Of a stretch of DNA of 64,000 nt, positions 3,384 to 57,213 are shown one piece after another. Each line of letters opens with the position of its first letter. The first letter of the stretch is position 1. The position numbers were made by a program, and so were the translations under genes. The DNA is from a virus, in IMG/VR virus record IMGVR_UViG_3300036942_000180, positions 33,795-97,794 of that record; one strand, written 5' to 3'. The notes under the pieces were generated by a model. That model searched no databases, was not told the DNA's origin, and saw nothing but the letters and a program-made list of their open reading frames with translations.

Positions 3384-6300
3384 TTAATCTTTCAATACAG
3401 AATTTTGTTCGTCCTCATCGTTGGTTAGTTCAAGACCCATACTCTTAAGATACGAATCAAATATTCTTCTAGTAATATCAGTAGTATCAGAAGTCTCTAT
3501 TTTTTCCATATTGAATATATTCTCATTTAATAATTCATCAACCATTTTTTGTCTACTCTCTTTATTACTAGAATAGAGAGACAAGAACCTTTTTATCTCT
3601 TTTGGATTCTTTGTTAAGAGGAGATTTGATATCTCCATTTCCGTTTATATTCATATAAGTTTATTAATCTCATATCTGATTTCAGCTATATATTTCTATA
3701 TAGACTAGACTATATCTTTACCTAGTTAGGCATTTCCCGTTTCTATTGCATTCACAATATACTATTAGTCTTTGAACATTCTTATTATTAAATATAATAA
3801 GATTTGCTGCTTATTATCCTTTAATTAGGATTTTTAAGCAATTAGAGAAATTTTAATTGAGCTATTTTATTAACCCAATCTTAGAGGATTCTTACGATAT
3901 AAATTCTCATTTTCTTTGAATGCTTTACTCTTGGCAGGGATGTTTTTTATATTATTGTAAGCGACTGATCTAGCAGAGAACTTACTACTAGCAGTGTGCT
4001 TGAGCAACACAAAATACAAGTCCCCCATCACCATTTTATTTTCTATTCCTTTGAACTTGAATGGTTCGATGTCATACTTATGCATCACTTCAGATAGTTG
4101 ATCGAACTCAATATTATCGTAAAAAGGTGGTTGATGAAAGTATATCCCATCTTCGTAGATATCCTCCCAGAACTCATCCTTATCTTCTGAATTTAGATTG
4201 ATATAATATTCTTCTAGAGCTTTAGCTTGAGTTTCATTGATATCATTCATGAAGTTGAAAAATAGTTCTTCTCGTTCTTTGTGATTATCTAAATTTTCTA
4301 GTTTCTTTGACATCTGAATAGACATCATGCCGAAAGTGACAGTATATAATTGGGTTGGATTTACGTTTATATTCATATAGATTCGCTAATATCTATACAG
4401 TTCTCTCATGAACTTCTATATGTTTCCATATAGACTAGACTATATCTTCACTCCTTTCGAAGTGTCTCCTGTTTCGATTTAAAGGGTTTTCACCTACTCC
4501 AATAACTTGAGCCCTACTCCTGTTGTGAATTAACACTAAAGGATAGTCGTTGAATATAGTTTTCTAAAATAATTTCTATATTTTTAAAATCAGTGTGTGG
4601 AATTCTTAATAAATTTATATTATTTTCTTTACAATATTTATTTTTCTTTTTATCATGAATTTGGACTCTATTTATCCTATCTTCAGTAAATATAGTATTT
4701 TCTTTTTGTCTCATATGATATTTCCCATCATATTCAATTAATAAATTTAATTTACTAACAAATATATCAAATCTTAATTTCTTATTTGAAAATTCGGATT
4801 TTAAATCATTAAAAGTTTTTTCAGTTTCAAAATTTAAATTTCCATCTTTTAAAAATTCTTTTATCTTTATTATTCCTTTTGAATCTCCTAATAAATTATG
4901 AATTGGATTTTCAGTACAGGTTGGACATCTTTGTCCATTAGTAATAAAATTATTAGGTCTTATATCCATTACTGTACCACATTCTAAATGTTTAATTTTA
5001 ATATTAGTTCTAGATATTCCTTTAAAATTTTCTGGAATATAAATTACTTCATATTCATTATCTATTTTCTTTATTATTTCTTTTAATTCTTTTTTAGTAT
5101 ATGCGTGTTTATTGCAATTATTACACCTATATCCATTATAAAGAAAATCAGATGGTCGCATATAAAAGTTTGAATTACAATCTTTATGCCAAAATCTTTT
5201 TAGTTCTTGTAATTCTCCATGTTTATATTCATCTTTAAATTTATAGTTAGTTCCTTCTAATTCTTTTACTTTTTTTACTATTGATTTTTTATCTAATTTT
5301 GTTCCAGCACAAAATCCACATTTATTTCTTCTTGGATCTTTATAGTATTTATAAACAGTTTCTAAATTTCTATTACACTTTAAATGTTTAATTATTATTT
5401 GTGATCTTGGACCATCATGTTTTATTATTTTTACTAATTTAAATTCATTATCTTTTTCAATTTCATATTTAATTCTTCTTTTAGTCAATTGAGACGATTT
5501 TATTCCATGTTTTCTTTTTAATTTTGATACTTCCCATTTAGAACATGAAAACATATCTGCTACTTTTTGAATTGTATTTTCCCATAATAATAGTTCAAAT
5601 TTATCTTTATCAATTTCATTTAACTTTTTCATATTAATAATCCTTTCTTAAAAACTATACTGCTGATTGCCCATTGTAATATCTATAAGTATTTTTAAGC
5701 ATATCACGCTTACCAGCTAGGTTACGTTGTAGCTCTTATAGCTTTAGGGGTTTCCAGCAATTAAGGAGATGCAAATAAATGATTATTCATTTATAGGGCT
5801 AATTTAATAACCGATTGATAACCCCAAGAGGGTTCAATAATACTTCAGCTTTCTCTCCACTTTCAGTTGTAGGCATTTCTTCATCGGGAATGATTTTACT
5901 GATTATACCTTTATTTCCTGACCTTCCACTGATCTTACTCCCTACACGGCATTCCTTCTCTTGCAGTATTCTGAACTTCACAATAATGTTACTGAATTCC
6001 TTACCATTATTCCTCCACACAATTTCGTCATCTGTGATTTCCTTAGCTCTTTTATACTGGTAAGCTAGGTCATCTGAATAGTTTTCTTTGGAGTTTTCTT
6101 CAACTATTTCAGATAATACTTCATATACTTTTTCATAGTAAGCTTCATCTTTCTTTATATACTTAACTAACTGTTCATTGAATTTGTGTTTCTCCAATTT
6201 CTCAGTATCAGCATTACTATACACGCTGATATCAATGACTTCCCCATCACTGTAGAACACAGTGTCGTTACTGTAATTGATGTTGTTAAGTTCTTTGGTT

Positions 6301-7480
6301 TTAAGGTCAGTCAGTATCGAATCGTAATCAATTCTCCTTCGGGCACATAGAAATTTACTGAATTTCTCTCCAATATCAGGGAAAGATTTATATTCATCAT
6401 TATCCCCGAATAGATTGATCAATATATCGTTAGTATTAATATTGATACTAATTTCATCTATCCTATAAGAAGTTAATTTTTCCTTACCACTTTCTGATAT
6501 AACTATTGCCATTTACCTTTTACATAACTCGTTAAATTACATATGCTATATATTTCTATATAGATGAGACTATATCATTATTCAATTAAGAATAATCCCT
6601 TTTTCCACTTACTCTAAGTGTACTATTAGTCGTTGAATGTTCTTATTACTTTCATAATAAGATTCACTGCTTATCATCCTTTTAATCAGGATTTTTAAGC
6701 AATTAAAGGATTTTAACGAGGACTACAATAATTTATAATCCTCAAAAGTTAAGTTCTTGTAGGGTATAAATAGGGCTTTGAGGTTCGTTCCATACATAAA
6801 ATTAAGATCATCGTCATAAGTGGTACTCCTATAGACTAGATCATCTTTCTCGATACTGTCTCCTTTGCCTTTATCTTTAATCTTGTTGTCTATCTTATAA
6901 CCATACTTTTCAGTAGTCCTCTCTGCGTTCTTCACTTCTTCGATGTGGTAGTACTCTGAATTCTTATCTTTTAATACGTAGAGTATATTCTTTTCATTCT
7001 TCTCTATTCTTTCTATTATCTCCCAATCTCTGTCCGCTTTCTTGTACGCAGAAGAATACTTACCCACTTGATTCTCGAAGTTGGTGAATACTCTCGGAAA
7101 CTCGGGTTCCTTTAGAACTATTGCTTGCCTAATGTGATTGGTGAACATGTTGATCCTGTTTGACATTTATATTATTATAAGATTATTAATCCTATACTCA
7201 TAGTTACTTATGAGATTAGACTATATCTTTGTGCATACACACACTCTCTTTTTCCACTATATTTATAGTGTACTATTAGTCGTTGAACATTCTTATTATT
7301 AAATATAATAAGATTTGCTGCTTATTATCCTTCTAATTAGGATTTTTAAGCAATTAAAAGAGTTTTAAGCGAACCAATTTAATCCGCTTTATCAACATTA
7401 GGTGTTAATAGTTCCTCTGATAAGAATTCGTGTGAACCATCAAACTTTTCAATATCAATATCTCTAATTCCTAGACTCAT
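3384..7480 (-). CDS. rpoB: Phage RNA polymerase beta subunit, C-terminal half (probably non-virion RNAP, phiKZ gp71-73-like); 5 exons, 657 aa
   Basis: Exons 7480-7382, 7163-6738, 6509-5810, 4363-3873, 3641-3384 join in frame (1974 nt). Splicing restores beta motifs KAD|SNRINMFTNHIRQA, TFED|AIVISE, GSKISGRSGNKG, NPLGVINRL|NPTQ, RLG|EME. Confidence 0.92.
3642..3872 (-). mobile_element. Group I intron, ORF-less (231 nt)
   Basis: P1 UUGGGU/GCUCAA with U.G wobble; AAUUGCUUAAAA, AAUAAGCAG, UUCAAAGACUA and AAGAUAUAGUC core elements; terminal G. Confidence 0.9.
4364..5809 (-). mobile_element. Group I intron with homing endonuclease ORF (1446 nt)
   Basis: AAUUGCUGGAAA, AAUCAGCAG, UUCAACGACUA, AAGAUAUAGUC; ends AAACG; removal restores frame. 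Confidence 0.9.
4514..5632 (-). CDS. Intron-encoded endonuclease (Zn-ribbon repeats plus EDxHD/Vsr-like nuclease)
   Basis: Repeated HxxC...FLxxGxRCxxC units; C-terminal FDIF...IEYDGKYH...HD; ORF reads into the P7 core. Confidence 0.8.
   Translation of the reverse strand: MKKLNEIDKDKFELLLWENTIQKVADMFSCSKWEVSKLKRKHGIKSSQLTKRRIKYEIEKDNEFKLVKIIKHDGPRSQIIIKHLKCNRNLETVYKYYKDPRRNKCGFCAGTKLDKKSIVKKVKELEGTNYKFKDEYKHGELQELKRFWHKDCNSNFYMRPSDFLYNGYRCNNCNKHAYTKKELKEIIKKIDNEYEVIYIPENFKGISRTNIKIKHLECGTVMDIRPNNFITNGQRCPTCTENPIHNLLGDSKGIIKIKEFLKDGNLNFETEKTFNDLKSEFSNKKLRFDIFVSKLNLLIEYDGKYHMRQKENTIFTEDRINRVQIHDKKKNKYCKENNINLLRIPHTDFKNIEIILENYIQRLSFSVNSQQE
6510..6737 (-). mobile_element. Group I intron, ORF-less (228 nt)
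   Basis: P1 GAGGAU/GUCCUC; conserved core; terminal G; splits FED|AIV. Confidence 0.9.
7164..7381 (-). mobile_element. Group I intron, ORF-less (218 nt)
   Basis: P1 GCGGAU/GUUCGC; conserved core; terminal G. Confidence 0.9.
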
Positions 7481-8277
7481 TAAACCACTCCTTGATTGGT
7501 ATTTATATTATTTAATTCATCTATATCTCTGTTATGAATATCTTCACCAATAGTAGCCATTTGGTCGGCTAATGCTATGATCTTCACTATGTCGTATTTC
7601 TTCCTAGCTTTATTTAGCAATCCTTCTACTCCGTCTTTCTTCCAAGCTCCCATATGCCACCTAATAGCTAGTATGACATATTCTGGAAGATTAAAGACGT
7701 ATTTTTGAAGAAACAATACAGATTTCTCTCCATGACCAAACAATAAAGGATCTTCCTTATATTTCCATACATCTACGTTAATAGCTGGTGGTGGACCTTC
7801 AGGGTTCTCGGACAACCACGATATCAGATCGCTGAACCTATTTTTAGTCTTAAATGTCTTCAGTTTTAATACTTTATTGGTGATCCCTCTATCTACTAGA
7901 TCATCTCTATGTCTATCGAATAAACTCTTTAGGAACTTCTTCTGCTTTCTAGTAGGTTCTTCCCTATCTTTTATCTTTTCATATCTATCAATCTTGCATA
8001 GGTCATGAAACAGTCCTGCAAGCTTCACGTAATCGAGTTCGTAATCATCTAATACTCCATAGGTCTTTAGCAACATTATCAAATTCTTTTCAGTTTTAAC
8101 AGAATGATCTGCCAAACCTCCAGTGTAATTAGAGTGAAATTTGATACTGGCAGGCAATTGAAAGAAATCATTTTCAAAAAGAAACTCTATGAAATCATCC
8201 TTTTCTTCATTATTTATAACTTCGGTCTCGTCAATAAAATCTAATATATATTGTCTATTGTCTTCTACATAACTCAA
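7480..8277 (-). CDS. HD-domain phosphohydrolase
   Basis: GGLADHS, LFHDLCK, GHGEKS, IRWHMG, LADQMAT. Confidence 0.85.
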   Translation of the reverse strand: MSYVEDNRQYILDFIDETEVINNEEKDDFIEFLFENDFFQLPASIKFHSNYTGGLADHSVKTEKNLIMLLKTYGVLDDYELDYVKLAGLFHDLCKIDRYEKIKDREEPTRKQKKFLKSLFDRHRDDLVDRGITNKVLKLKTFKTKNRFSDLISWLSENPEGPPPAINVDVWKYKEDPLLFGHGEKSVLFLQKYVFNLPEYVILAIRWHMGAWKKDGVEGLLNKARKKYDIVKIIALADQMATIGEDIHNRDIDELNNINTNQGVV

Positions 8278-8296
8278 CTTGTCTTATTCCCCCTCA

Positions 8297-8650
8297 TTAT
8301 TTGTGCCACGGTTTAAAATTCTTTATTGAATCTATTAAATCTTTATTCCATTCACCTTTAAAAGTAATAGCTCTGTCATCTACTTGAACTACAGCGGGTA
8401 CTTTGTTCTCGACCACTTCATCTACTTCAATGTTGTATTTTTGAAGGTAATCTTTTATTGCATCCATTCCACCTTTCTGATGACACCTAGAGGAATGAAC
8501 TACAACTTTGAATTCTTTTCTCAATTCCTGTATCGCTTCATTGACTCCTTCTACTGGTTCGTCTGGAATGTTAGTTGCTCCACACCAACCACTTTCATAA
8601 CTATTAATAACTCCATCAAAATCTAATATTGCTGTCATCTTATTTGACAT
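8297..8650 (-). CDS. HAD-superfamily phosphatase
   Basis: DFDGVI motif I, KVP and VDDRA motifs. Confidence 0.8.
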   Translation of the reverse strand: MSNKMTAILDFDGVINSYESGWCGATNIPDEPVEGVNEAIQELRKEFKVVVHSSRCHQKGGMDAIKDYLQKYNIEVDEVVENKVPAVVQVDDRAITFKGEWNKDLIDSIKNFKPWHK

Positions 8651-8654
8651 AAAA

Positions 8655-9068
8655 TCACTCCTTAAAAATTATTTCTTTTATCATGTCTTCTCCAATAACA
8701 TTATAAATTCCATTATCTAAATTTTTAACTATATATTCATGATGACCATTAAAACCTTTAATTACATTTTTATGACCAAAAACATCTTTTACAATATCAT
8801 CCAAATCTAATTCAGTCTTAGATACTTTATAATTCTCATTATGAACAGCTAATTCATCAATAGGAACTATCTTATAATAATTATTACTACCACCTTGATA
8901 TTTTATAAGAAAGTTATTATCTTCATGAATATAATAAAGAACTTCACAGGGATCTGATATTTTCTGAAACCCTGAATATGTGTTTCCTAAATCATATTCT
9001 CTTACATAAAGAACATCATCTGAATTTAAAATTCTATTAACTTTTAATTCAATTTCTTCTTTTCTCAT
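8655..9068 (-). CDS. Hypothetical protein
   Basis: 137-aa ORF in operon. Confidence 0.65.
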   Translation of the reverse strand: MRKEEIELKVNRILNSDDVLYVREYDLGNTYSGFQKISDPCEVLYYIHEDNNFLIKYQGGSNNYYKIVPIDELAVHNENYKVSKTELDLDDIVKDVFGHKNVIKGFNGHHEYIVKNLDNGIYNVIGEDMIKEIIFKE

Positions 9069-9071
9069 ATA

Positions 9072-9419
9072 TTATTCATCCTCCATAATTATATTTACAA
9101 TACAATCGATCGTGCATTCAAAAGCTTCTGACAGTTCGAATATAGAAACTTCATCATCATTATAATATTTCTTTATTTCATTCTCATCATCTTTATCAAT
9201 ATCATTAATAGTCTTATTACCAGGGTTATAAACACTCCTCAACTTAGATTTACTCCCATTATTCCTGTTGGGTCTGAGATTATACTTCTCCAATATTTTT
9301 TCAACGTGGCTTGGTCCAGATAGACCATGTTGATTGGAAATGGAGTTAAGAGTCAAATCAGAATCATAATATTTTCTAATAATATTTCTGTCTCTTTCTA
9401 GATTTTTATTATCTTTCAT
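9072..9419 (-). CDS. Putative HTH DNA-binding protein
   Basis: Two HTH-like segments (TLNSISNQHGLS; SIFELSEAFECT). Confidence 0.5.
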   Translation of the reverse strand: MKDNKNLERDRNIIRKYYDSDLTLNSISNQHGLSGPSHVEKILEKYNLRPNRNNGSKSKLRSVYNPGNKTINDIDKDDENEIKKYYNDDEVSIFELSEAFECTIDCIVNIIMEDE

Positions 9420-9450
9420 ATACTATTCCTCCTTTTATTTTTATTCAAAA

Positions 9451-9467
9451 TAATAATATATATTTGA
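9451..9467 (-). promoter_or_regulatory. Early-type promoter motif
   Basis: TCAAATATATATTATTA upstream of 9419. Confidence 0.55.
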
Positions 9468-9593
9468 CTCTATTTTTATAATTTGTAGAAGACCTGTCAA
9501 ACCCTCTTTTTTATTTATTTAATTTAAATGAGCAGAGAATGGGATTTTAATGACTCTATCCACTTCTCTGCTCTATATTAAGGAGATGATACC

Positions 9594-12500
9594 TTATTCT
9601 TCGTCTTCTTCGATTTCAACTTCCACTTCGACGAATTCTCCTGTGTCTTCATCTTCTTTGTAGTACACTGTCTCTTCTCCACTGTTATCTATCCATAAAT
9701 CGTTTTCTTCATCGTACTCCAAGTTCTTCTGCTGACTCAATACCTTCGGTTCAGGGATCAAGTTTTCTAATTCTTCCTTAGCTAACTTGTTGAATTGCTC
9801 TCTGAATTCTTTATCTTCGTCATATTTTTCCTTTATTTCGTTCATCCTAAAGCTACTTTCATAGCCATCTAAACTTTTCCAAGCACTGCCCGAAATTCTC
9901 TTAGCATCATCAAGTAATAGATAGTTAGATAGAATATTATCATAACCATTAACTTGATCAAAAACACTATTGAAAGTGACTCCTGCGGCAGTTGACCTAG
10001 ATTTAATAAATTTACCTTCGATTTCAAATCCTTTGACGTAGAACTTCTTATCTGGTTTTAATTTTGATCCTGCTTCAAGTTTGATTAAATAGTTGCTTAG
10101 ATATAATGGAGCTTTTCCACCTGGGACATTTTCCGTTTATATTCATATAGATTCGCTACTATCCATACAGTTCTCTTATGAACTTCTACATATTTCTATA
10201 TAGACTAGACTATATCTTTTTCAAGACTTTTTCGAATACCAATAGCTTGTATTCTACTCCCTTTCGGGATAGTCGTTGAACTTTATATATTATATTATTC
10301 CAAATAATTTTAATATTTTCTTTAACTTTCCATATCTATAATATTTGTATTTTATTCTAAATATTTTATAATTATTTTTAATAGCTTTTTTAGATTTTTT
10401 ATAATCAATTTCTTTTCTTCTTTTTAAATCTTTATCAGTCATGCTCCATTTTTTCTTATCATGTTGTTCTCCATCAAATTCAATTAATATATTTTTATTT
10501 TTTATTAAAAAGTCGTAAGGTTTATTTGATAGAAAATTATCATTTGGAATTACAAACTGATGCTTGTACTTTATATTATATTCATCTAAAATTTCTATTA
10601 TTTTCTTTTCACCTTTAGATATAGTAATAGAGCAATGTGGACATCTATTTTTATTATCTACAAAATCATTATAAGTAGTTGTAAATTTATTATTACATTT
10701 CAAATGTTTAAGAATAATTTTAGTCTTATTGTTTTTATATTCTCCCTTTTTAACTTTAATAAACTCATAATTATTATTACTTTCTTTTCTTATAATAGAT
10801 TTTATATTATTTTTAATCCACATCTTTTTACCCATTGTATTATTTTCATTACACACTGGACATAATTCTTGATTTGATTCATTAATTGTTTGAGGTAAAC
10901 ATTCAAAGTTAGTACCACAATCTTTATGAATTAAATTAATTGATTTTTTACTACTATCATAATTAGATGAAATTATATAATTATCAGGTATATTTCTTTT
11001 TAATTTATTAAATGCTTTTTTTGATCTTTCTTTTAATCTACATTCTGGACATCTATTTCCATTACTAAGAAAATTATTAGGTTTTATTTTCCATATATGT
11101 CCACATATCATATGTTTACATCTAATTTCTGTAGAACTTCCATCATACTCATCTAAAAAAAAATATTCATCTTTAACTTTATCATAAACATCTTGTTGAA
11201 ACTCTTTATTAGTCTTTTTTCTTGGCATTCTAATCGCTTCCTTTAATAAAAAGGAATAATATAATATATTTTAGCTGCTGATTGCCCATTGTAACATCTA
11301 TAAGATTTTTAAGCATATCACGTTTACTAGTTAAGTTACGTTGTAGCTCTTATAGCTTTAGGGGTTTCCAGCAATTAAATCTTTTTATACAGAACTAAAG
11401 TTAATCCTGTTTCAAATAGTTAATTTCAGCCTTAGTTTTATTAAATCCAATTTCAATTTTCTTTGTGATGTGATTGACAACTAATAGGATTATATTAGCA
11501 TCATTCAAAAATGAAGGGATTCTTTTAAAGATTGAAGTGTTTACTTTTGCCACGGCTGAAGCACTCATACCCCCTGATAGCTCTTCCTCCTCCTCTATAT
11601 TTTGAGGACTCATTACAGCAAGACTGTCCAGTATAACAACTGTAGGTGGAAGAACTGTAATTGGTTGTCCTTCATCATCCACTTTCCCAGTATCTAACTC
11701 TAATTTTTCTCTATTCTTTATCTTGAGCTTACTTAAGGACTTGATGCCTTTGTAGAAAGTTTCGGCGTAAATATCACTCTTCAATAAAATATATTTATCT
11801 TTAATCTTCTTAGAAGGCCACTCTGATAATGATTGAATTCTATTCTTAGTTGTAGCTCTCTATAGTGATAGGTAAGCCTTTGATATTATCTCCAGCTTTT
11901 CCCCCACTTCACACTGTACGTGAGACTTTCACCTCATACAGCGTTCTAACATGTTTTAATATTCCTTATTTAACTCCACAATATTTCCTACTTAATTTTT
12001 CTCTTTGTGCTTTCAATCTTAGTTTATTCAATCTGTTGAACTTTCTTCTACCCAACCCAATTTTCTTGACTATTTTAGTAACTGTAGGTTTATTACCATG
12101 TATTAAACGATGCTCAAGTTTAGATACAATAATAAGGTTATGATATTCATCAGTGCCATCAAATTCTTTAGGTAGTTTGTGATGAATTTCAAAATTACCA
12201 GATTGAATATTTTCATTAGTAATCTTTGTCTTACCTTTTTGCTGTATATATAATCCAGGTAGATAACTGTATATGAGGTTATTAAATTTAATATTTTTCT
12301 TCATAACCTTAAGTATCCAACTACTACACCTCTTAGTATATACATTATTTCTAAACCCAAGTTTCTTTAAGTCTTTCTCATCATACACATTAATATTAGG
12401 TTTCCTCTGTATAAGTCTCTTTTGATTTACTCTGTATATAGGTATCATAGGATTTTCAGGTCTAATATAGAAGTATTTCACCTTATCCTTACCTTTCAAA

Positions 12501-14909
12501 GCAGAAACCAGCTGTCTTTCCACTTTGTAGTCTCTACCATATTTGACCTTATCCTTAAGTCCTTTAATTCTACTCCACAACTCATCATGTAGTTTGTATA
12601 ACTGACTACATACATCATTAGCTGCTGAATAATAATTATGAATACCGTTCACATATACATTGTATTTATAAATTTCTTTATCATTTTGGAATTTAGCTAT
12701 CCTGTCAATATGATATTTTACTTTCTCCCTGATATTCTCAAGAGCTTTATCACTTATCTTAATCCTAGTCATATAATTTCTATGAAGAGGATTATTGCTT
12801 TCCTGTTTATAAGGAAGTAGTTTAATATCAAATCCTAGAAATTTAGAGTTGTTGGAAGTGAGATTAACTATCTTACTCTTTCTTTCAGATATCTCCAGCT
12901 TTAGGTCTTTTTCAAAAAAATTTTTCACTCCATGATAAAACCTTTTAGCTTCCCAATAACTTTTACAAAGTATCTTAAAGTCATCAGCATATCTTACTAG
13001 GTATCCTTCCTTCATATCAGAACCCTTCTTTCTTAACATCTTCTTCATGTTTCTGATATTAGTGGATTTATTCTTGGAATTATAGTTGTTTAGAACGTCA
13101 CTATATTCCCACTGATTATTAATCCATTTATCCAATCTATCTAAATAAACATTGGCTAATAATGGGGATAATACACCACATTGAGGAACACCTTTAGTCA
13201 TTTTCTTACCATCAATCGTGCCCTTGAGAATAGCCTTGATAATCATCAAAACCTTCTCATCTCTAATTCCAAAATTCCAAAGTTGATTCATTAAGACTCT
13301 ATGATTAACATTATCAAAGAAACCCTTAATATCTACATCAACTGTGAATTTACATTCCTGATGCATAGTTTTTTGAACTACTCTAGCAAGTGCTTGATGA
13401 CATCCTCTAGTTGGTCTAAAGCCATAACTTTCTTCTTCAAATCTGGCTTCACAAATAGGCTCAAGGATTTGAACAATCATCTGTTGAATAATCCTATCCT
13501 CTATACAAGCTATACCTAAAGGTCTCTTCTTACCGCTCGCTTTTGGAATGTAAACTCTACGCGTGTCATTAGGTTCATAATAATCTAACCTATTTTTAAT
13601 GTGTTGATAATACTCATCTAAATCTTTCTTTAATATTTCCTTCATGGTAATACCATCAGTACCAGGAGTATTCTTCCCAGTATTGTTTTTAAGTTTATGA
13701 ATAGCTCTCAGAAAATTTTTCTTGGATATTATAAGATTGAACAGATTTTTAAAGTTAATATCTTTAGCACTTCGGCTATACAACCATTTATCTTGCTTAT
13801 TTAAACCAAAGTAATAACTGTTTGTATAATCTGTTACTAGTTGCTTATTGGATGACATTTGAGTTTCTCCTCCCTTCTAGAGGGATATTGCGTCCACTCT
13901 TATTTACTCATAAACGATTCTGTCATCATTGTTCTTTATTTTACTCTTTTAGTTTTAAGAGTTTGGAATATTAAACATGTACGAAGGACTATAACTCCAC
14001 AGTTCATTATCACTGCTTCAAAGTCTAGTGTCCTTGCTTTCACAACATTAAACTGATTTCCATCTATGATTGTGGAACATAGACTTTATACAGACCAGTT
14101 AGAGGATTAATTCCCTTATATAACTGTATGTTGTTTCCCTTGTTCCGATAGACTTATCTATTTAATACCCTTAGATGCCTTCTATGACTATGTGATATAT
14201 GATGTGACCATAACACACCAAGGATGTTCATGACCTCGATTTTACTTATCCTCATATCACGACACACTGTGTCCACCTGCATATTATACAGACTCTATAT
14301 AGCCTTCCATTCAAAGGTTCGTCAGACATTTTAAATTATATCATACTCATCATAGGTACTAAGAATCCAGCCCTATACACTCATGACCACCTCTGGTTCA
14401 TTTTTCGCATGGTATAAATGTATAATACCAGTAACGGAGTGATTCAGACTACTTTAACGGGCTTCACAGAATATAGTAACTAATCTATATATTCCATGCC
14501 GTAGCTTCAGACCTGTCATTTCGATACTATAAGTGTATCTCATTCTAACAGTCAGCCTATCAGTTATACCTTATAAAAGATACAGCATTTTTCTAACATC
14601 ATATAATGTTATTGTATGCTAACAAGTCACACCAAAATCATAATGGACAATTTGCCCATTTTCATAAGGCTCAACAATATTAGTTGCCATCTGTATTGCT
14701 AAAGTAGTCTTACCTGTACCAGATTTTCCAATTATAGTAGTAATCTTACCTCCATCAATACCAGCAATAATCTCTCCTGTCTCGGGGTCTTTCCTTCCAT
14801 TGGTGTAATCCAGAACGTCAATCCCTGTTCTATACGTGGGAAGATATGCATCCTCTGATCCAAGGTTTTCTTTTTTAATAGTACTTCTAAATTGATCTGT
14901 TAAATTCAC
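9594..14909 (-). CDS. recA: RecA/UvsX-like recombinase; 3 exons, 424 aa
   Basis: Exons 14909-14633, 11861-11404, 10133-9594 join in frame (1275 nt); Walker A GKSGTGKT, HYDFE, Walker B VILDS, VVNH, QD|ENVPGGKAP. Confidence 0.9.
10134..11403 (-). mobile_element. Group I intron with homing endonuclease ORF (1270 nt)
   Basis: P1 ACAGGAU/GUUCUGU; core nearly identical to introns at 4364-5809 and 20181-21553. Confidence 0.9.
10290..11228 (-). CDS. Intron-encoded endonuclease (Zn-ribbon repeats plus EDxHD/Vsr-like nuclease)
   Basis: HxxCG...RCPxC repeats; SKGEKKI...YDF...IEFDGEQH. Confidence 0.8.
   Translation of the reverse strand: MPRKKTNKEFQQDVYDKVKDEYFFLDEYDGSSTEIRCKHMICGHIWKIKPNNFLSNGNRCPECRLKERSKKAFNKLKRNIPDNYIISSNYDSSKKSINLIHKDCGTNFECLPQTINESNQELCPVCNENNTMGKKMWIKNNIKSIIRKESNNNYEFIKVKKGEYKNNKTKIILKHLKCNNKFTTTYNDFVDNKNRCPHCSITISKGEKKIIEILDEYNIKYKHQFVIPNDNFLSNKPYDFLIKNKNILIEFDGEQHDKKKWSMTDKDLKRRKEIDYKKSKKAIKNNYKIFRIKYKYYRYGKLKKILKLFGII
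11862..14632 (-). mobile_element. Group II intron (2771 nt), probably bacterial class B
   Basis: 5' GUGUG, 3' ...ACUAU; domain V ACGCUGUAUGAGGUGAAAGUCUCACGUACAGUGU at about 11911-11945, followed by domain VI; removal restores recA frame. Confidence 0.92.
11966..13858 (-). CDS. ltrA: Group II intron RT/maturase with HNH endonuclease domain
   Basis: TPGTDG, RPLGI, SYGFRP, DIKGFFD, PQCG, YADD; C-terminal EIHH...NL...H..IH. Confidence 0.95.
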   Translation of the reverse strand: MSSNKQLVTDYTNSYYFGLNKQDKWLYSRSAKDINFKNLFNLIISKKNFLRAIHKLKNNTGKNTPGTDGITMKEILKKDLDEYYQHIKNRLDYYEPNDTRRVYIPKASGKKRPLGIACIEDRIIQQMIVQILEPICEARFEEESYGFRPTRGCHQALARVVQKTMHQECKFTVDVDIKGFFDNVNHRVLMNQLWNFGIRDEKVLMIIKAILKGTIDGKKMTKGVPQCGVLSPLLANVYLDRLDKWINNQWEYSDVLNNYNSKNKSTNIRNMKKMLRKKGSDMKEGYLVRYADDFKILCKSYWEAKRFYHGVKNFFEKDLKLEISERKSKIVNLTSNNSKFLGFDIKLLPYKQESNNPLHRNYMTRIKISDKALENIREKVKYHIDRIAKFQNDKEIYKYNVYVNGIHNYYSAANDVCSQLYKLHDELWSRIKGLKDKVKYGRDYKVERQLVSALKGKDKVKYFYIRPENPMIPIYRVNQKRLIQRKPNINVYDEKDLKKLGFRNNVYTKRCSSWILKVMKKNIKFNNLIYSYLPGLYIQQKGKTKITNENIQSGNFEIHHKLPKEFDGTDEYHNLIIVSKLEHRLIHGNKPTVTKIVKKIGLGRRKFNRLNKLRLKAQREKLSRKYCGVK

Positions 14910-15031
14910 TTCAAATCATCTCCTTATTTATGATGTCTTAATAAAATACTGTATGAAATTGTTTCACTCGATTTTTACAAAAAAAAATCCCTAACCAATT
15001 TTTGAGGTTAAGGATTAATTTATTAATTGAA

Positions 15032-15979
15032 TTATTCAACTTTATAGTGCCAAGTATCAATGAATGTTTGAGTGAGGTCTTGATAATCAAAAATGTTCTG
15101 CCAATTAACGCTAGTTTCATACTCTTCGATAAATGTTTCAGAAAGGACTTGATACCTAGAAATAAGATCCCAATTAACTTCAGTATCATGAGTTCTAATG
15201 AAGTCCTCTGAAAGAGTTTGATATTGCGAAACAAGATTCCAATCTAGTTTATCAATATTATTCTCCATCTCTGCTTCTGTCAGTGATACGTACTTACACT
15301 GATAATTCCAGAAGGTATCATTCTGGTAAAATTCTACTTTATCCAAGTTGAGCTTGTAATCATATTCATCCACAAAATCCATATCTAATGATTGGTATCT
15401 GGAAATCAGTTCCCAATTTAGATTACTTTCATAATCCCTCATGAACTGGTTGGATAGGTTTTGCTTGGATGAAACAGCATCCCAGTCTAAATTGCTAGAA
15501 TTCTCCCTCATGAAATCTTCAGTCAAAAATTGATATATGCACACAGAGAACCAATCTAAGTTTTGAAGATTGTTCCTTAGAAATTCCATTGAAAATACTT
15601 TATTTTTAATAGCTTTCTCCATCTTTAATTTTCCCTGCTCAATCTGTTCTTGAAGGATGTCTTCGGGAACGTCTTGCCCTTCAACCAACCTTTCTGCGTT
15701 GAATTTTTCCAAGTTATCCCTGATGTATTGTTCTGATATCTCCTGTGTCTTAGCTACTAAGTTAGCACCTACTTCATCTATGCTTTCTTCAACTAAAATA
15801 GGTGGTATATTAGTCTTATTTATGAACACCCTCTTCAGATCCATTTCATCCTTATTTTCTCTAAAGAGAGCTATTTTCTCTTCTTCAGTAAGTACCTGAC
15901 TATCAAATATGAAGTCTTCCAACTTCTCCATCCCACTCAATATGAAATGTATCTTGAGCATCTTAGTCAACTCTGACAT
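15032..15979 (-). CDS. Tryptophan-repeat protein
   Basis: Repeated roughly 22-aa units L(D/N)WxxxSxYQxLSExFI. Confidence 0.7.
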   Translation of the reverse strand: MSELTKMLKIHFILSGMEKLEDFIFDSQVLTEEEKIALFRENKDEMDLKRVFINKTNIPPILVEESIDEVGANLVAKTQEISEQYIRDNLEKFNAERLVEGQDVPEDILQEQIEQGKLKMEKAIKNKVFSMEFLRNNLQNLDWFSVCIYQFLTEDFMRENSSNLDWDAVSSKQNLSNQFMRDYESNLNWELISRYQSLDMDFVDEYDYKLNLDKVEFYQNDTFWNYQCKYVSLTEAEMENNIDKLDWNLVSQYQTLSEDFIRTHDTEVNWDLISRYQVLSETFIEEYETSVNWQNIFDYQDLTQTFIDTWHYKVE

Positions 15980-16002
15980 TAAAATTTCCCCCTCAATATA
16001 TT

Positions 16003-16575
16003 TTATTTCATAGTTAATAATATTTCTTTATGTTTCTTTTCTGCATTTACTAAATTTCTAAATATATAAGATACGCTTGGGTCATTTGTATTCATATGAA
16101 TATGAGTATACAATTTAATAGCTTCATTTTCCTTATCAATAGAATGGTCGATAAATTCATCCATCTCGAACGGACCAGTAAATTCTATCTCCTCTTCTAG
16201 CTCTTCGAATTCATCTTCACTCATCTCTATTAAGTCCGCTATCAATTCACCATGTTCTTCTTCATGATGACTAACTCTTCTTAAAATAGCAATATTTCTA
16301 AGTTCATTTCTTTCCTTACATTCTTCCAGCATCGCTTCATATCTAACAGTATCTTCTATTTCCATTCTAATAGCTTTTTCTAATTTTTCTTTCATATCGT
16401 CTGTAATAGAAATTGAAGTAACTTTCTCCCATAAATCAGGATCCTTCATCTCAGTACCTTTGCTTCCACAGTAAGGACAAGTATCAGGTCTTTCTTCACC
16501 TAGATAAACATGATTACATACTTGACATCTATAAATATTCTATTTACTATTCTTCACTTCTTCGTCTAGGAACAT
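16003..16575 (-). CDS. Rubredoxin-like plus ferritin-like (rubrerythrin-type) protein with in-frame TAG at codon 12
   Basis: RBS GAAAGGAG, ATG at 16575, MFLDEEVKNSK*NIYRCQVCNH...CPYCG in frame with ORF 16003-16449 carrying EEEH/EKKH diiron motifs. Confidence 0.7.
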
Positions 16576-16601
16576 ATAAAATCTCCTTTCTTTTTATTAA
16601 T

Positions 16602-16613
16602 TATTACTTTGTT
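16602..16613 (-). promoter_or_regulatory. Late-type promoter AACA-N6-TA
   Basis: AACA-AAGTAA-TA; one of 12 copies. Confidence 0.6.
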
Positions 16614-16629
16614 ACAACACATTAAAAAT

Positions 16630-16674
16630 AAAAAAAAAATAGACTGAGATTTTATTTAAAATATCTCAGTCTAT
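16630..16674 (-). terminator. Intrinsic terminator
   Basis: ATAGACTGAGAT/ATCTCAGTCTAT stem plus long T-tract. Confidence 0.75.
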
Positions 16675-16689
16675 ATTATTAAATTTTAA

Positions 16690-17100: not shown

Positions 17101-17121
17101 TTTAATATCCTCCTTTTTAAG

Positions 17122-19868: not shown

Positions 19869-22463
19869 TTAATTCTTATTAGTTCTTTCATGACCTATTT
19901 CTCTTTTTTCTTTGTTTTTAAGAGTTCTAGGTAAAGCTAATCCACCTTGAAGGAGATCAGTATTGATTCCTGCAGCAGTCATATAAGCATCTATAACGTT
20001 CAATGTTTGCTTATCTTCAATATCGCTTTCTAATTCTCCTAGATTGGCGTAGCCTTCAAGAGATATTTTTTGCTCCATTTGCATTTTTTGCTTAGAGTCA
20101 TCAGATCGTGGTCCAAGGGCTTCTTTAAGGAACTTATCTGCACCCATAGCCACTAGACTTTCCATCTCTGGCTTGGTGATCGTTTATATTCATATAGATT
20201 CGCTAATATCTATACAGTTCTCTTATGAACTTCTATATGTTTCCATATAGACTAGACTATATCTTCACTTCTTTCGAAGTGTCTCCTGTTTCGAGTATCA
20301 ATAACTTATACTCTACTCCCTTTCGAGATAGTCGTTGAACATCTTATATTTAATTCAATATTTTTTCTTCTAGTATTTTTTCTATATTTTCTTTTTCCCA
20401 ATAAGGAATTCTAATTAATTTTATATTATTTTCATTACAAAAAATATTTTTTATTTCATCATTTTCTTTTTGTTTTTTAAATCTTTCTATTCCACCAAAA
20501 TAATCTATAGGTTGATAATGTTGTATTCCATCATATTCTAATAAAATAAAATCATCATCTGTTTCTATTTTAAAATCAAAAGGAAGATAGTTAATATTTT
20601 TACATTTTTCAATAACAAATTCATTTTCAAATTCTATATTTTTATCTTTCAACCAATTATGAATTATTTTTTCTCCTTTAGAAGCCTTACATTTAGGACA
20701 TCTAGTTCCTTCTAAAAAATGTAATGGTCGAACTGAATATTCATATCCACATTCTTCTATATCGTGTTTCATTATTACATTAGTATTATTATTAATATAT
20801 TTACTTAATAATATATAATCATTTCCTTCTAATTCATATATTTCCTGTTTAAATTCTTCAGTAGTTTTTCTTTCATTTCCAAAACACTTTGGACAACGTT
20901 GTCCATTATCTAAAAAATTATGTGGATTCATTTTAAATTCATGTCCACAACTTTCTATATTATGTTTAATTAATATTTTATCTTTATTATCTTTACCATA
21001 TTCAGTTAATGGAATATATCTATTACCAACTAATTTTTTCATTTCCCATTTAAATTGTTTATTTGATTTACCTTGTTTAAATTTTATATTATATTTTTTA
21101 ATTTTATTATAAATAGTTTTATAACTACAATTAAAATATTTACTGCATTCTTTTCTATTTAAAAATTTATCTTCTATTAATTCTTTTAGCTTTTTCCCAT
21201 TATTCTTATCAATATCTTTGTAACTTCTTTCTTCATTCAATTCTTCTTCTGTTATTAAATCTAACATATTTTACCTCCGATAGTAATTTATTTCCGATTT
21301 ATATAATAAATAGGAAACGAGACTCGGATAATCTCGCTTTCGGGTATATTGCCCTATCCTATTAAATATTTGTTTTATATTAAATTAATTAATAAAATGA
21401 TGCTGATTGCCCATTGTAATATCTATAAGGATTTTTAAGCATATCACGCTTACTGATTAAGTTACGTTGTAGCTCTTATAGCTTTAGGGTGTTCCAGCAA
21501 TTAAGGAGATTCTAACATGTATTTTAAATTAATACATGTCACGCTATTAAATAACGTGCAGCACGACTATCGCCAGTCACTTGATGAAACTTTTCATTGC
21601 GTTGCATATTATCTTGGGTATAAGTATTCTTTTTCATTAATTTTCATATAGAATCGTTAATTCTATATCTGATTCAGCTATACGTTTCCATATAGATAAG
21701 ACTATATCTTCACTAATTAAAGTGCTTCCTATTTCTACTATAAACTATAGTATACTATTAGTCGTTGGATGTTCTTATTATTAAAATATAATAAGATTCA
21801 CTGCTAATTACCATTTAAGGTTTCAAGCAATTAAGGAAATTTTACTTGAGCAAAATAGTTCACTCAATACCTGTTGTAATCTTTTCAAATGTAAATCGTG
21901 TTTTTTATATAGAATCATTAATTCTATACCATATAGCTATACGTTTCCATATAGACAAGATTATATCTTTACTAATCAATATAGCATTCTCTGTTTCTAT
22001 TGGATTTCCAATATACTAATAATCGTTGGATGTTCTTATTATTAAAATATAATAAGATTCACTGCTTATTATCTAATCAAAGACTTTCAAGCAATTAAGA
22101 GAATTTTAATTGGGCTATTTACGTGATTAACCCAACTGGAACTTTAGTTCTACTTCTAATCTCATTCCCGTCTTTATCAGGGTAATAGATATATTCTTCT
22201 AGCTCTATATCAAGTATGTCTGCCGCTTTCTTAACGCCTTCCATATCAAGTTCTTTTTCAAATGGCTCCGTCTCAAGATAGAAATTCTCACTATCATCTT
22301 CCAGAAAATCACTCAACCATTCGTCAAACTCCTTATTAGTGCTCATCTCTTCAAACTTATCCTTATATTTATCCTTATTATCACCTGAAGGGTCTAGTGT
22401 TTTCATAACATCATATACTAGGTTTTCTATTCTTTCTCTCTTATCAGTCGAAATTCCTGCCAT
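19869..22463 (-). CDS. Phage RNA polymerase beta C-terminal fragment (probably virion RNAP, phiKZ gp149-like); 4 exons, 253 aa
   Basis: Exons 22463-22130, 21896-21862, 21634-21554, 20180-19869 join in frame (762 nt): VPVGYLHLKRLQQVLS|KKN...QVTGDSRAAR|ITKPEMESLVAMGA...GPRSDD. Confidence 0.82.
20350..21267 (-). CDS. Intron-encoded endonuclease (HTH, Zn-ribbon repeats, EDxHD/Vsr-like nuclease)
   Basis: CGHEF...RCPKC x2; LPFDF...LEYDGIQH. Confidence 0.8.
   Translation of the reverse strand: MLDLITEEELNEERSYKDIDKNNGKKLKELIEDKFLNRKECSKYFNCSYKTIYNKIKKYNIKFKQGKSNKQFKWEMKKLVGNRYIPLTEYGKDNKDKILIKHNIESCGHEFKMNPHNFLDNGQRCPKCFGNERKTTEEFKQEIYELEGNDYILLSKYINNNTNVIMKHDIEECGYEYSVRPLHFLEGTRCPKCKASKGEKIIHNWLKDKNIEFENEFVIEKCKNINYLPFDFKIETDDDFILLEYDGIQHYQPIDYFGGIERFKKQKENDEIKNIFCNENNIKLIRIPYWEKENIEKILEEKILN
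21363..21374 (-). promoter_or_regulatory. Late-type promoter inside intron, upstream of endonuclease ORF
   Basis: AACA-AATATT-TA. Confidence 0.55.
21635..21861 (-). mobile_element. Group I intron, ORF-less (227 nt)
   Basis: P1 UUGAGU/GCUCAA; conserved core; terminal G. Confidence 0.9.
21897..22129 (-). mobile_element. Group I intron, ORF-less (233 nt)
   Basis: P1 UUGGGU/GCCCAA; P7 shows compensatory change (ACGAUUA / UAUAAUC). Confidence 0.9.
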
Positions 22464-55365: not shown

Positions 55366-57213
55366 TTAATTAAAACCTAAATTAAATGAATCAGAATCGT
55401 TCATATCTAATTTTTTATTCTTGCTCTTCTTTTGTTTTATCTTAGGTTGTAGATTGCTGTTGGAATTACTCTTTGGAGTGAACTCTTCTAACTCGTCTGC
55501 TAAACTCTCCACGCAGTAATTTTCTCCTGTATTATAATCTTCTTTGAGTTTCATACCATTTTCGAATTCGTAATTAATATATTTCGGTCCAGTTTCTTTA
55601 CCTCTCATTTTCACTCTCTTCATAGCTAAGTACTCTTTATCAGTTGAAACTTGCAGTTCTTTATTAAGAATAATAGCAACATCAGTGTTCTCGACGATCA
55701 ACATTGAATCCCCTACATTGTGCTGACCTAGTAGTTTACCTTTATCAGCCTTCCCATCGGCAACCTCTTCTAATTTTCTGTATGAATCTCTATTAAGTTG
55801 AGAAGCAGTTACTACTGGAATATTATGGGTTTTGGCGATAACGCTGAGTTCATTTACAATAGCCATTCTATATTCATCTAGATTTGTTAGATCTATATAA
55901 GTTTGATACTTCTATATATTTCTATATAGTTTAGACTATATCTTCATCTTTATTATAAGATGTCTTCCTATTTCCACTTCACTTAAAGCGTACTGATAGT
56001 CGTTGAATGTTCTTATTATCAAAATATAATAAGATTCACTGCTTATTACCATAATGGTTTCCAAGCAATTAAGGAAGAACCGGCACTATTGCTGTTTACC
56101 GTACTCTTGATACTTGTTATCACTAAAGCTTTCGATAGATTTAATTCTCTTAATGTAATCATGAATGAGCATTTTAACTTCGTAACCTTCTGTGGCTAAT
56201 TCGTCAATATACGCATCAAGATCAGATGTGTCGATACTTCTATTAGGTTTATATACATTTTTAAAGTTATCAGAAACAAAACCCGCTTTATTAAGTTCGT
56301 AGACCGCTTTTTTAGGACTGAATGTAGCAATTGCAACTTCCTCACCCACAAAATGTGACCAAATTCTTTCAAAAGTTTCTTGATTGGTATTTTCTTGAGA
56401 TACCATCAAGATTAAAGGTTTTTTAGTTGGATCTTCTGTTTGCATATCTTTATTATATTTTAATCCCCAAAGTGCAGAGTTGAGTAACATACCAGATTTC
56501 CACCCACCACTGATAGCAAAATAGGTATATACTCTTCCTGCTTCATAACCATGTCCACCTAACATATCATTTAAACCTTTTAATCCAGTAGTGATGTAAT
56601 TACTATTTTTATTTTTATTATTGATAGTTATTTCTGCAATATTCATTAATGAATCAGAATTATTACCAAAATCAGTCATTTCGTACTTCTTCTTAGCTTC
56701 TACTTCTTTAAGTTTGTTCAATAATGTATTTAAATTACTCGTCAGAGGATTAACTATTTCCATTAGATTTTTAAAATCACCTGTATCTAATTTTAATAGA
56801 AGATTACTTAACTTATCTTTCTTTTTAAATAGTACTTTATACTGTAGCATATTTGAAATTCTTCCATCAATAAAAGCAACCATATCATTACTTAAATCAT
56901 CATCGTTATTAATTAATTCTTGATATATATCATTGATTTCTTTATCAAATTCTCCACCAATTGGATAGTACTTTAACATATTATAATCTTGAATGCCCTT
57001 ATCGATGTAACCTTCTACTAATTTATTAATAAGATAAATCCTAACTTCCATAGCTCTATTATCATTAAAGTCTTCGATATCTATAATATCAAAGAGCTTC
57101 TTAATTTTATAATAAGATTTTTTAGTAACCAGTGTATTCTCTGAGAAAATCATCTGGATAATATTATCTAATAGTGAAATATCTAAGTGTATTTTGTAAG
57201 CATCGCTGTTCAT
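55366..57213 (-). CDS. dnaB: DnaB-like replicative helicase; 2 exons, 537 aa
   Basis: Exons 57213-56098 and 55863-55366; ITTGLKGLNDML, SGGWKSG, VSQEN, IHDYI, EYG|AIVNEL, VTASQLNR. Confidence 0.9.
55864..56097 (-). mobile_element. Group I intron, ORF-less (234 nt)
   Basis: P1 CGGU/GCCG; same mini-intron core and P6a hairpin; terminal G. Confidence 0.9.

What the first reader, a model, noticed from the sequence alone, without database searches (positions are those of the whole stretch)
3642..56097. Family of six ORF-less mini group I introns (218-234 nt) spread over three genes
Seen: introns at 3642, 6510, 7164, 21635, 21897 and 55864 share a compact core (AAUUGCUU, very short P5, AAU(A/U)AGCAG) and a near-identical P6a hairpin AAUCUUAUUAUAUUUUAAUAAUAAGAA. 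Each has its own guide sequence matched to a different exon. They sit near the lower size range of group I ribozymes and encode no endonuclease. Inference: a lineage that colonised unrelated sites within one genome, perhaps by reverse splicing plus the co-resident group II RT, or by trans-acting nucleases.
Basis: partly seen in the sequence, partly recalled or inferred. Interest (0 to 1): 0.72.

Follow-up and report, generated by a model that had tools for sequence, protein, structure and literature searches.

The report
Multi-copy ORF-less group I intron family
Six small self-splicing (group I) introns without genes of their own really do interrupt three essential genes of an uncultured AR9-like giant phage. 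They belong to a multi-copy family that reaches new sites matching its short guide sequence and whose copies recombine with each other. This is an instructive case of a phenomenon already known in these phages.

Summary
All six elements are minus-strand group I introns at exactly the stated coordinates, 218-234 nt long, without ORFs, and they form one structural family. 25 of 61 base pairs show compensatory changes.

- A seventh member lies outside the window, in the DNA polymerase gene.
- Four more lie on a contig that probably adjoins this one.
- I1, I4 and I5 do not have separate guides. They share GC(U/C)CAA and sit after UUG(G/A)GU.
- The near-identical P4-P6 region, including the 'P6a' hairpin, is largely a product of recombination between copies.

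The family is not confined to this genome. Related uncultured AR9-like jumbo phage contigs carry 4-17 model matches each, at partly different sites.

- Spread to unrelated sites fits the reuse of one target hexamer at five or more unrelated sites.
- It also fits intron-free alleles in close relatives (I2, I4).
- No endonuclease-bearing relative was found at any of the six sites.
- The mechanism (reverse splicing or DNA-level insertion filtered by P1 fit) is not settled, and nothing links the group II RT to it.

Intron-rich AR9-like phages are already in the literature, and this scan noted similar families on other DNA (e1-1960691, e1-5379655). I class it as a new member of a known kind, of moderate interest.

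The parts
3642..3872 (-). Mini intron I1 (231 nt) in the non-virion RNAP beta C-half gene, between codons RLG and EMEIS. Guide GCUCAAUU pairs with exon GAUUGGGU.
   Evidence: Rfam 71.5 bits; own model R1 212 bits; AR9 colinearity; P1
6510..6737 (-). Mini intron I2 (228 nt) in the same gene, between TFED and AIVIS. Guide GUCCUCG pairs with UGAGGAU.
   Evidence: Rfam 63.6 bits; R1 179.7 bits; AR9 residues 176/177 are contiguous; the site is empty in L079 and G004
7164..7381 (-). Mini intron I3 (218 nt) in the same gene, between VDKAD and SNRINMF. Guide GUUCGCUU pairs with AAGCGGAU.
   Evidence: Rfam 63.6 bits (its 5' border is misplaced); R1 204.8 bits; AR9 colinearity; orthologous intron in L079, 83% identical
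21635..21861 (-). Mini intron I4 (227 nt) in the virion RNAP beta gene, between QQVLS and KKNTY. Guide GCUCAA pairs with UUGAGU.
   Evidence: Rfam 55.8 bits; R1 205.7 bits; AR9 colinearity; an intron-free allele joins 21634 to 21862 in run X2
21862..21896 (-). 35-nt micro-exon (YLHLKRLQQVLS, phase 1) between I5 and I4.
   Evidence: The spliced frame matches AR9 gp077 (VPVGYITIKRVQQILSKKNTY)
21897..22129 (-). Mini intron I5 (233 nt) in the virion RNAP beta gene, after KVPVG (phase 1). Guide GCCCAAUU pairs with AGUUGGGU.
   Evidence: Rfam 53 bits; R1 195.4 bits. P7 carries a compensatory C-G to U-A change.
55864..56097 (-). Mini intron I6 (234 nt) in the DnaB-like helicase gene, between QEYG and AIVNEL. 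Short P1: CGGU with GCCG.
   Evidence: Rfam 59.4 bits only when a small region is searched (missed); R1 182.1 bits. AR9 DnaB has the same 13-residue spacing and no intron.
4364..5809 (-). Context, not a family member: ORF-bearing group I intron (377-aa ORF in the P6 loop, long P5, two hairpins between P7 and P3') in the same beta C-half gene.
   Evidence: Rfam 38.5 bits and R1 64.8 bits on the 3' half; sequence; separate clade, support 99
20181..21553 (-). Context: ORF-bearing group I intron (305-aa CapR/DUF4379 plus Vsr-like ORF) in the virion RNAP beta gene, between SRAAR and ITKPEME.
   Evidence: Absent in a contig of run X2 (joint 20181 to 21557).
10134..11403 (-). Context: ORF-bearing group I intron (312-aa CapR/DUF559 ORF) in the UvsX-like recombinase gene.

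Best explanation
The six elements are genuine ORF-less group I introns of the phage IA type: a P3-P9 core, one extra hairpin between P7 and P3', and no P2. They must splice themselves out of the mRNAs of essential genes: two RNA polymerase beta genes and the DnaB helicase.

They belong to one multi-copy family that lives in a clade of uncultured AR9-like jumbo phages from oil-field and shale metagenomes. There are 7 copies on this 97.8-kb contig, 4 on the contig that probably adjoins it, and 4-17 model matches on related contigs.

Three processes shape the family.
1. Copies reach new sites whose last 4-8 exon bases pair with the intron's guide. One sub-lineage with guide GC(U/C)CAA sits after UUG(G/A)GU at five or more unrelated places. 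This is shown as a pattern. The path is inferred: reverse splicing followed by cDNA recombination, or DNA-level insertion that survives only where P1 can form.
2. Copies are gained or lost between close relatives. This is shown for I2 and I4.
3. Copies exchange modules by recombination, above all those in one gene. This is shown, and it accounts for the near-identical P4-P6 block with the 'P6a' hairpin.
For: Group I identity and structure:
- Rfam RF00028 matches all six.
- 94.7% of cells pair and 25 of 61 pairs change on both sides, with 0 of 500 shuffles as high.
- Every 5' exon ends in U opposite a guide G, every intron ends in G, and the spliced frames are colinear with intronless AR9 proteins.

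Family beyond this genome:
- My model R1 finds 6, 4, 6 and 17 matches in contigs G001-G004, 4 in L079, and the ORF-less AR9 gp077 intron.

Guide-matched spread:
- UUGGGU with GCYCAA occurs at the I1 and I5 sites, at a prohead-protease site (G002, G003), and at an NPLG site (L079). UUGAGU occurs at I4.
- The contig's coding strand holds only 12 TTGGGT and 35 TTGRGT. The chance that 3 of 7 random sites follow TTGRGT is about 2e-9.
- The flanks share nothing beyond the hexamer.
- Empty orthologous sites differ by synonymous changes that break P1.

Gain and loss:
- I2 is absent in L079, which is 76-84% identical to this contig in the exons.
- L079 has introns at two sites that are empty here.
- I4 is absent in a contig of run X2.
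- G003 has a TerL intron whose site is empty in G002.

Recombination:
- I1 and I3 are 100% identical over P4-P6 but only 36-58% identical in P7.1, P8 and P9.
- Informative sites for I1 favour I3 over I5 by 15:0 inside that block and favour I5 by 34:18 outside it, Fisher p = 3e-6. Two other triplets give p of about 2e-7 and 2e-6.
- At the I1 site, L079 keeps the same guide, but the intron body is only 52% identical and groups with the large-intron family.
Against: - No RNA data exist, so splicing in vivo is inferred from gene essentiality and restored frames (one search listed no RNA holder).
- Guide-target reuse does not separate reverse splicing from any insertion route followed by selection for a working P1.
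- Occupied sites must keep P1, so the synonymous differences at empty sites could be drift after loss rather than a barrier to entry.
- Tree nodes inside the mini family are mostly weak (29-67% bootstrap), and recombination blurs them.
- The intron-free I4 allele rests on one Logan contig laid at 85% likeness, with 56 letters on the shorter side.
- The region for the mosaic test was chosen after looking at the data.
Confidence: 0.75

Rival explanations
1. Independent ORF loss plus homogenisation. Each mini intron descends from an endonuclease-bearing intron that homed into its own site. The ORFs were lost separately, and gene conversion between copies then made them look like one family.
For: - Module exchange is real.
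- At a DNA polymerase site (before NSFYG), contig G003 has a mini intron and G001 has an ORF-bearing intron with the same P1-P3 and P8 but different P5, P6, P7.1 and P9.
- At the I1 site, L079 has a body of the large-intron type.
- The ORFs of the large introns sit in the P6 loop, exactly where the minis have the P6a hairpin.
Against: - No ORF-bearing relative was found at any of the six sites in AR9, G004, L079 or run X2.
- Reuse of the same guide and hexamer at unrelated sites is not expected from endonucleases with long, site-specific targets.
- The minis and the large introns form separate clades (support 99 for the large-intron clade).
Confidence: 0.15
2. Trans (collaborative) homing. Free-standing or intron-borne nucleases of the phage cut intron-free alleles of co-infecting relatives, and repair copies the ORF-less introns in. 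This maintains and spreads them between phages at the same sites. It could act alongside the best explanation.
For: - The genome encodes CapR/DUF4379 plus DUF559/Vsr-like nucleases in three introns, and a free-standing homologue lies at genome 24529-25932.
- Presence/absence polymorphism among close strains is what homing acts on.
- The mechanism is established for other phages (review PMC3984707).
Against: - No cleavage site is known for any of these proteins, and none was tested here.
- This route does not explain arrival at new sites that share only a hexamer.
- Only dnaB has a neighbouring candidate.
Confidence: 0.3
3. Retrotransposition driven by the co-resident group II intron RT. Reverse-spliced RNA is copied by the 630-aa RT and recombined into the genome.
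For: An intact RVT_1 ORF lies in a complete group II intron in the UvsX-like gene. Guide-matched targets fit a reverse-splicing first step.
Against: - Contigs of runs X2 and X3 join 11861 to 14633, so they lack the group II intron. X2 contigs of the related strain still cover the 3' parts of I1 and I2.
- Related contigs rich in minis were not checked for an RT.
- Group II RTs are specific for their own intron RNA (general knowledge).
- No experimental case of group I retrotransposition exists (PMC3984707).
Confidence: 0.07

Closest known systems
Group I introns of AR9/PBS1 and the MarsHill-like Staphylococcus jumbo phages (Lavysh 2016 as cited in PMC12350094; bioRxiv 10.1101/2020.12.14.422802)
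   Same: - The phage group is the same: the beta C-half is 46% identical in protein to AR9's.
- The same gene classes are hit: RNAP subunits, DNA polymerase, terminase, prohead protease.
- Intron positions vary between relatives.
- The AR9 gp077 ORF-less intron matches my family model at 113.7 bits.
- The endonuclease family is the same one described in PMC12350094, CapR plus a Vsr-like domain.
   Different: - The sites differ. AR9 is intron-free at all six sites, and its two gp077 introns sit elsewhere.
- The minis are shorter (218-234 nt against 307 nt) and have one hairpin between P7 and P3'.
- I did not find family-level features described in the papers I read: guide reuse and module exchange.
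Staphylococcus phage Twort orf142, with three ORF-less group I introns in one gene (Landthaler and Shub 1999; recalled from memory, paper not held)
   Same: Several small ORF-less group I introns lie in a single phage gene, and the genome has many introns in all.
   Different: This is a different phage group. No close sequence match exists: blastn finds only 55-nt core matches to K-like phages. There are more copies here, and guide sharing between sites is documented.
rDNA group I introns proposed to spread by reverse splicing (PMC1299323; review PMC3984707)
   Same: Related introns sit at heterologous sites that share only the few bases complementary to the guide. The evidence is circumstantial and phylogenetic.
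   Different: Here the targets are protein-coding genes of a phage rather than rRNA. Recombination between copies is strong, and no RT link is shown.
Collaborative homing of ORF-less introns with free-standing endonucleases (cyanophage psbA with F-CphI, T-even phages; PMC3984707)
   Same: ORF-less introns lie in a genome that also encodes free-standing nuclease genes, one of them next to an intron-bearing gene.
   Different: No nuclease target has been shown to coincide with an insertion site here.

Membership tests
Group I intron (Rfam RF00028) | Match to the covariance model above the curated gathering score | tested here: met
   53-71.5 bits against a cut-off of 50 for all six
Group I intron (Rfam RF00028) | Conserved P3-P8 core with the P3/P7 pseudoknot, kept by compensatory changes | tested here: met
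   94.7% of cells pair and 25 of 61 pairs change on both sides. P7 has one C-G to U-A double change, in I5.
Group I intron (Rfam RF00028) | 5' exon ends in U, wobble-paired to a G of the internal guide (P1); the intron ends in G | tested here: met
   True for all seven minis. P1 is 4-8 bp; it is only 4 bp in I6.
Group I intron (Rfam RF00028) | Removal restores a reading frame colinear with intronless homologues | tested here: met
   AR9 beta C-half, DnaB and gp077. For the polymerase, the PHROG profile positions are contiguous, 246 to 248.
Group I intron (Rfam RF00028) | Guanosine-dependent self-splicing | not testable with these tools
   No RNA runs hold this DNA. This needs in vitro transcription and splicing.
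Subgroup IA2 (phage-type) group I introns | Extra helices P7.1 and P7.2 between P7 and P3' | tested here: inconclusive
   The minis have one covarying hairpin there (helix 6). The ORF-bearing introns and the AR9 intron have two. No subgroup-specific model was available.
Mobile (homing) group I introns | Intron-encoded homing endonuclease | tested here: not met
   At 218-234 nt, no frame inside can hold a nuclease.
Collaborative (trans) homing pair | A free-standing endonuclease whose cleavage site coincides with the intron insertion site | not tested
   Candidate genes exist (window 57572-58975 next to dnaB), but no target is known.
Intron lineage dispersed by reverse splicing | Related introns at heterologous sites that share only the 4-6 nt complementary to the guide | tested here: met
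   UUGGGU or UUGAGU with GCYCAA at five or more unrelated sites, p about 2e-9
Intron lineage dispersed by reverse splicing | [quoted passage not shown] | not testable with these tools
   There is only an RT in a group II intron, and it is absent from related strains.

The most novel reading that the evidence does not exclude
This phage clade may hold an actively transposing ORF-less group I intron family that chooses new sites in protein-coding genes by its 6-nt guide, that is, by reverse splicing in vivo. Its copies then evolve in concert by recombination. If so, it would be a natural multi-site system in which the long-proposed but never demonstrated RNA-level mobility of group I introns could be tested directly.
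Probability: 0.3. Interest if true: 0.75.

Novelty: new member of a known kind. Interest (0 to 1): 0.55.

Why it matters
Group I introns without endonucleases are usually seen as stranded passengers, and how they reach new sites is an old open question. The review read here (PMC3984707) says there is no direct evidence for reverse-splicing mobility and that the best hints come from rDNA.

This family offers many natural replicates in phage protein genes:
- the same guide and hexamer at unrelated sites;
- empty and filled alleles in close relatives;
- clear module swapping between copies.

That makes the question testable with simple ribozyme assays and with population metagenomics.

There is also a practical point. 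Gene callers and Rfam's default filters miss these introns in AT-rich phage DNA, so RNA polymerase, helicase, polymerase, terminase and protease genes of such phages are annotated as fragments.

Tried and rejected
- **Rfam on large stretches.** It lost real introns. The dnaB intron and the 31358-31623 intron appear only when 1-6 kb is searched. Nothing was found in the rest of the genome, although the seventh mini is there.
- **Rfam 5' borders.** Those for I3 and I6 are wrong. My first guess for the I3 junction (FDG|SNR) was also wrong and was corrected with AR9.
- **Megablast and blastn against cultured phages.** These gave only short core matches. The best was Enterococcus phage EF1, 71% over 163 nt.
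- **RNA evidence.** No RNA holder was listed for this DNA, so splicing could not be observed.
- **Joints between paralogous introns** (for example 3720 to 21994, 6674 to 7343). I rejected these as partial matches of other intron copies, not deletions.
- **The exact junctions of the G001 beta' intron c.** They could not be reconciled with a U at -1 and a terminal G, so I did not count that site.
- **P1 of several relatives with a hairpin-type 5' end** (for example G002 c, G003 f). These were left unresolved.
- **Two papers were not held**.
- **The viral-contig search with a beta C-half exon** gave only four loci. **The metagenome scan** gave one.
Full report
**What the DNA is.** The window is the last 64 kb of a 97,794-bp virus contig. 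Nearly all genes are on the minus strand. Its proteins are closest to Bacillus jumbo phage AR9/PBS1 and to the Staphylococcus and Listeria jumbo phages. The beta C-half exon is 46% identical to AR9's, and the virion beta and DnaB pieces are 39-44% identical. DNA runs that hold it are oil-field and shale-gas metagenomes.

**The observation.** Rfam RF00028 matches five minus-strand introns above threshold in the whole window. It matches the sixth, in dnaB, when only 6 kb is searched.

I fixed the borders with three kinds of evidence:
- colinear tblastn to intronless AR9 proteins;
- a U at -1 paired to a guide G;
- a terminal G.

The resulting coordinates are I1 3642-3872, I2 6510-6737, I3 7164-7381, I4 21635-21861, I5 21897-22129 and I6 55864-56097.

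The hosts are three genes:
- the non-virion RNAP beta C-half gene (I1-I3; Pfam Rpb2_6);
- the virion RNAP beta gene (I4 and I5, separated by a 35-nt micro-exon);
- a DnaB-like helicase gene (I6).

The six share 66-79% identity and one architecture: P1, no P2, P3, P4, a 5-bp P5, P6 with a long AU-rich P6a, P7, one hairpin between P7 and P3', P8, P9 and a 3' hairpin. On this structure 94.7% of cells pair and 25 of 61 pairs have compensatory changes. No shuffle of 500 reaches that, and slid controls give 30-51%.

- The motif GATATAGTC (P7 3' strand) occurs 11 times on the minus strand of the genome and never on the plus strand.
- My covariance model R1 finds a seventh mini at genome 12058-12288, in a DNA polymerase exonuclease motif outside the window.
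- Three ORF-bearing group I introns share the 3' core but have a long P5, two hairpins after P7 and an ORF in the P6 loop. They lie at 4364-5809, 20181-21553 and 10134-11403.
- A group I intron of another type lies at about 31358-31623.
- There is also the group II intron.
- That makes ten group I introns in the window and eleven on the contig.

**The family elsewhere.** A conserved pattern and R1 retrieve close relatives from IMG/VR.

| Contig | Size | R1 matches | Where |
|---|---|---|---|
| G001 | 78.6 kb | 6 | RNAP beta' and beta-N genes |
| G002 | 32.8 kb | 4 | prohead protease and terminase genes |
| G003 | 31.9 kb | 6 | same four sites as G002, plus two more |
| G004 | 247 kb, complete | 17 | many genes |

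G002's last 127 nt equal this contig's first 127 nt, so it is probably the adjoining piece of the same assembly. One metagenome contig, L079, is a sister of the beta C-half gene, with exons 76-84% identical. AR9's ORF-less gp077 intron also matches R1, at 113.7 bits. Published work already reports that AR9-like phages have many intron-split genes with variable positions.

I found no endonuclease-bearing relative at any of the six sites.
- AR9 is uninterrupted at the I1, I2, I3 and I6 sites, and also at I4 and I5. Its two gp077 introns lie at two other places.
- G004 is contiguous across I2 and I6.
- L079 has an orthologous mini at the I3 site (83% identical, similar to the exons) and an ORF-less intron at the I1 site. 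It has no intron at the I2 site, and it has two introns at sites that are empty here.
- A contig in run X2 joins 21634 to 21862, which is the exact absence of I4.

**Evidence for guide-matched spread.**
- I1, I5 and I4 have guides GCUCAA, GCCCAA and GCUCAA and follow UUGGGU, UUGGGU and UUGAGU.
- The same pair recurs at a protease site in G002 and G003 and at an NPLG site in L079.
- A CUGGGU/GCUCAG variant occurs in G004.
- The contig's coding strand has only 12 TTGGGT and 35 TTGRGT. Three of seven random sites falling after TTGRGT has a probability of about 2e-9. The motif was chosen after the fact, but the margin is large.
- The flanks show no other likeness, which argues against a long protein-recognised target.
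- Empty orthologous sites differ by synonymous changes that remove the U at -1 or break P1.
- With P1 columns removed, I1, I4, I5 and the protease-site introns still fall near each other, but support is weak.

**Evidence for recombination between copies.** Likeness depends on the domain.
- I1 and I3 are 100% identical through P4-P6, and I2 is 97% identical to them in P4-P5. Yet I1 and I3 are only 36-58% alike in P7.1, P8 and P9.
- I3's P7.1 is 95% like I7's. I5's P7.1 is 100% like that of introns in G001 and G002. I4 and I5 share P6 and P9.
- Informative sites switch partner at the borders of the P4-P6 block (15:0 against 18:34, p = 3e-6; two other triplets give p of about 2e-7 and 2e-6).
- In L079 three introns of the same gene share a different P4-P6 block. 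Its I1-site intron keeps the I1 guide, but its body is 52% identical to I1 and groups with the large introns.
- At a polymerase site, G003 has a mini and G001 an ORF-bearing intron with the same P1-P3 and P8.
- All 13 G004 introns in the tree form one clade (support 99), although G004 shares a terminase site and the beta' DFDG site with other contigs.
In P6, 8 of 12 pairs never vary, against 0-1 invariant pairs in P3, P7.1 and P8. A sequence-specific role for P6a is not excluded.

**Mechanism.**
- Shown: ribozyme architecture, exact junctions, guide-target reuse, gain and loss between relatives, and mosaic copies.
- Inferred: that the introns self-splice, because the host genes are essential and the frames are restored. 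Also inferred: that new sites are entered through pairing with the guide.
- Not settled: whether entry is by reverse splicing with cDNA recombination, or by DNA-level events that survive only where P1 forms.
- The group II RT has no demonstrated role. Contigs of runs X2 and X3 lack that intron, while X2 contigs of the related strain still cover the 3' parts of I1 and I2.
- Nucleases acting in trans are plausible for spread between co-infecting phages at a given site, but this was not tested.

**Novelty.** These are new members of a known kind. Intron-rich AR9-like phages and multi-intron phage genes are documented, and earlier notes of this scan describe similar families on other DNA (e1-1960691, e1-5379655). 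The value lies in the number of natural replicates for the question of how ORF-less group I introns move.

Noticed in passing
genome 12058-12288 (L001:12058-12288, minus strand; outside the window): Seventh member of the mini family (231 nt), in a family B DNA polymerase exonuclease motif between DKPDFAGA and WNQTFD. Its guide GGUCCCU pairs with AGGGGCU.
   Followed up: yes
window 31358-31623 (minus strand): A further ORF-less group I intron of a different, more GC-rich type in an AAA-ATPase gene (exon 30404-31291). Rfam gives 55.7 bits, but only when 1 kb is searched. My family model does not match it.
   Followed up: partly
window 11862-14632 (minus strand): A complete group II intron with a 630-aa RT in the UvsX-like recombinase gene, which also holds a group I intron. 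Contigs of runs X2 and X3 join 11861 to 14633, so related strains lack it.
   Followed up: partly
window 1-127 and contig G002 (IMGVR_UViG_3300036942_000123) 32690-32816: 100% identity over exactly 127 nt at the contig ends. The two contigs are probably neighbours in one assembly graph, which would add four more mini introns (protease and terminase genes) to the same phage.
   Followed up: partly
window 1-64000: Rfam cmscan with default filters loses AT-rich group I introns when long stretches are searched. Two real introns were found only in short sub-windows. Rfam's 5' ends for I3 and I6 are misplaced by 40-50 nt.
   Followed up: yes
window 57572-58975 and genome 24529-25932 (L002:7530-8933): Two free-standing 467-aa genes. 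The second has DUF4379/CapR repeats like the intron ORFs. The first lies directly upstream of the intron-bearing dnaB and gave no Pfam family above threshold. Both are candidates for nucleases acting in trans.
   Followed up: partly
G001 (L037) 8910-9846: The RNAP beta' gene of a related contig has three mini introns. Two of them flank a micro-exon of about 15 nt that encodes the catalytic DFDG. I could not place the junctions of the middle intron with both a U at -1 and a terminal G.
   Followed up: partly
G003 3986-4206 and G001 about 2945-4142: At the same DNA polymerase site (before NSFYG), one phage has a 221-nt mini and the other an intron with a 283-aa ORF. P1-P3 and P8 are nearly identical, while P5, P6, P7.1 and P9 are of different types.
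   Followed up: partly
G004 (IMGVR_UViG_3300031555_002387), 17 places: A complete 247-kb relative has 17 matches to the family model. Many of them are the 3' halves of ORF-bearing introns. All end in an almost identical 3' hairpin and tail (TAAGATTAACGACCTTATGTGAACATAAA).
   Followed up: partly
genome 7126-8928 (outside the window): Three tandem paralogous genes (175, 214 and 197 aa) with nearly identical N-termini (MSSKKMKKLLMEVKLARGD...).
   Followed up: no
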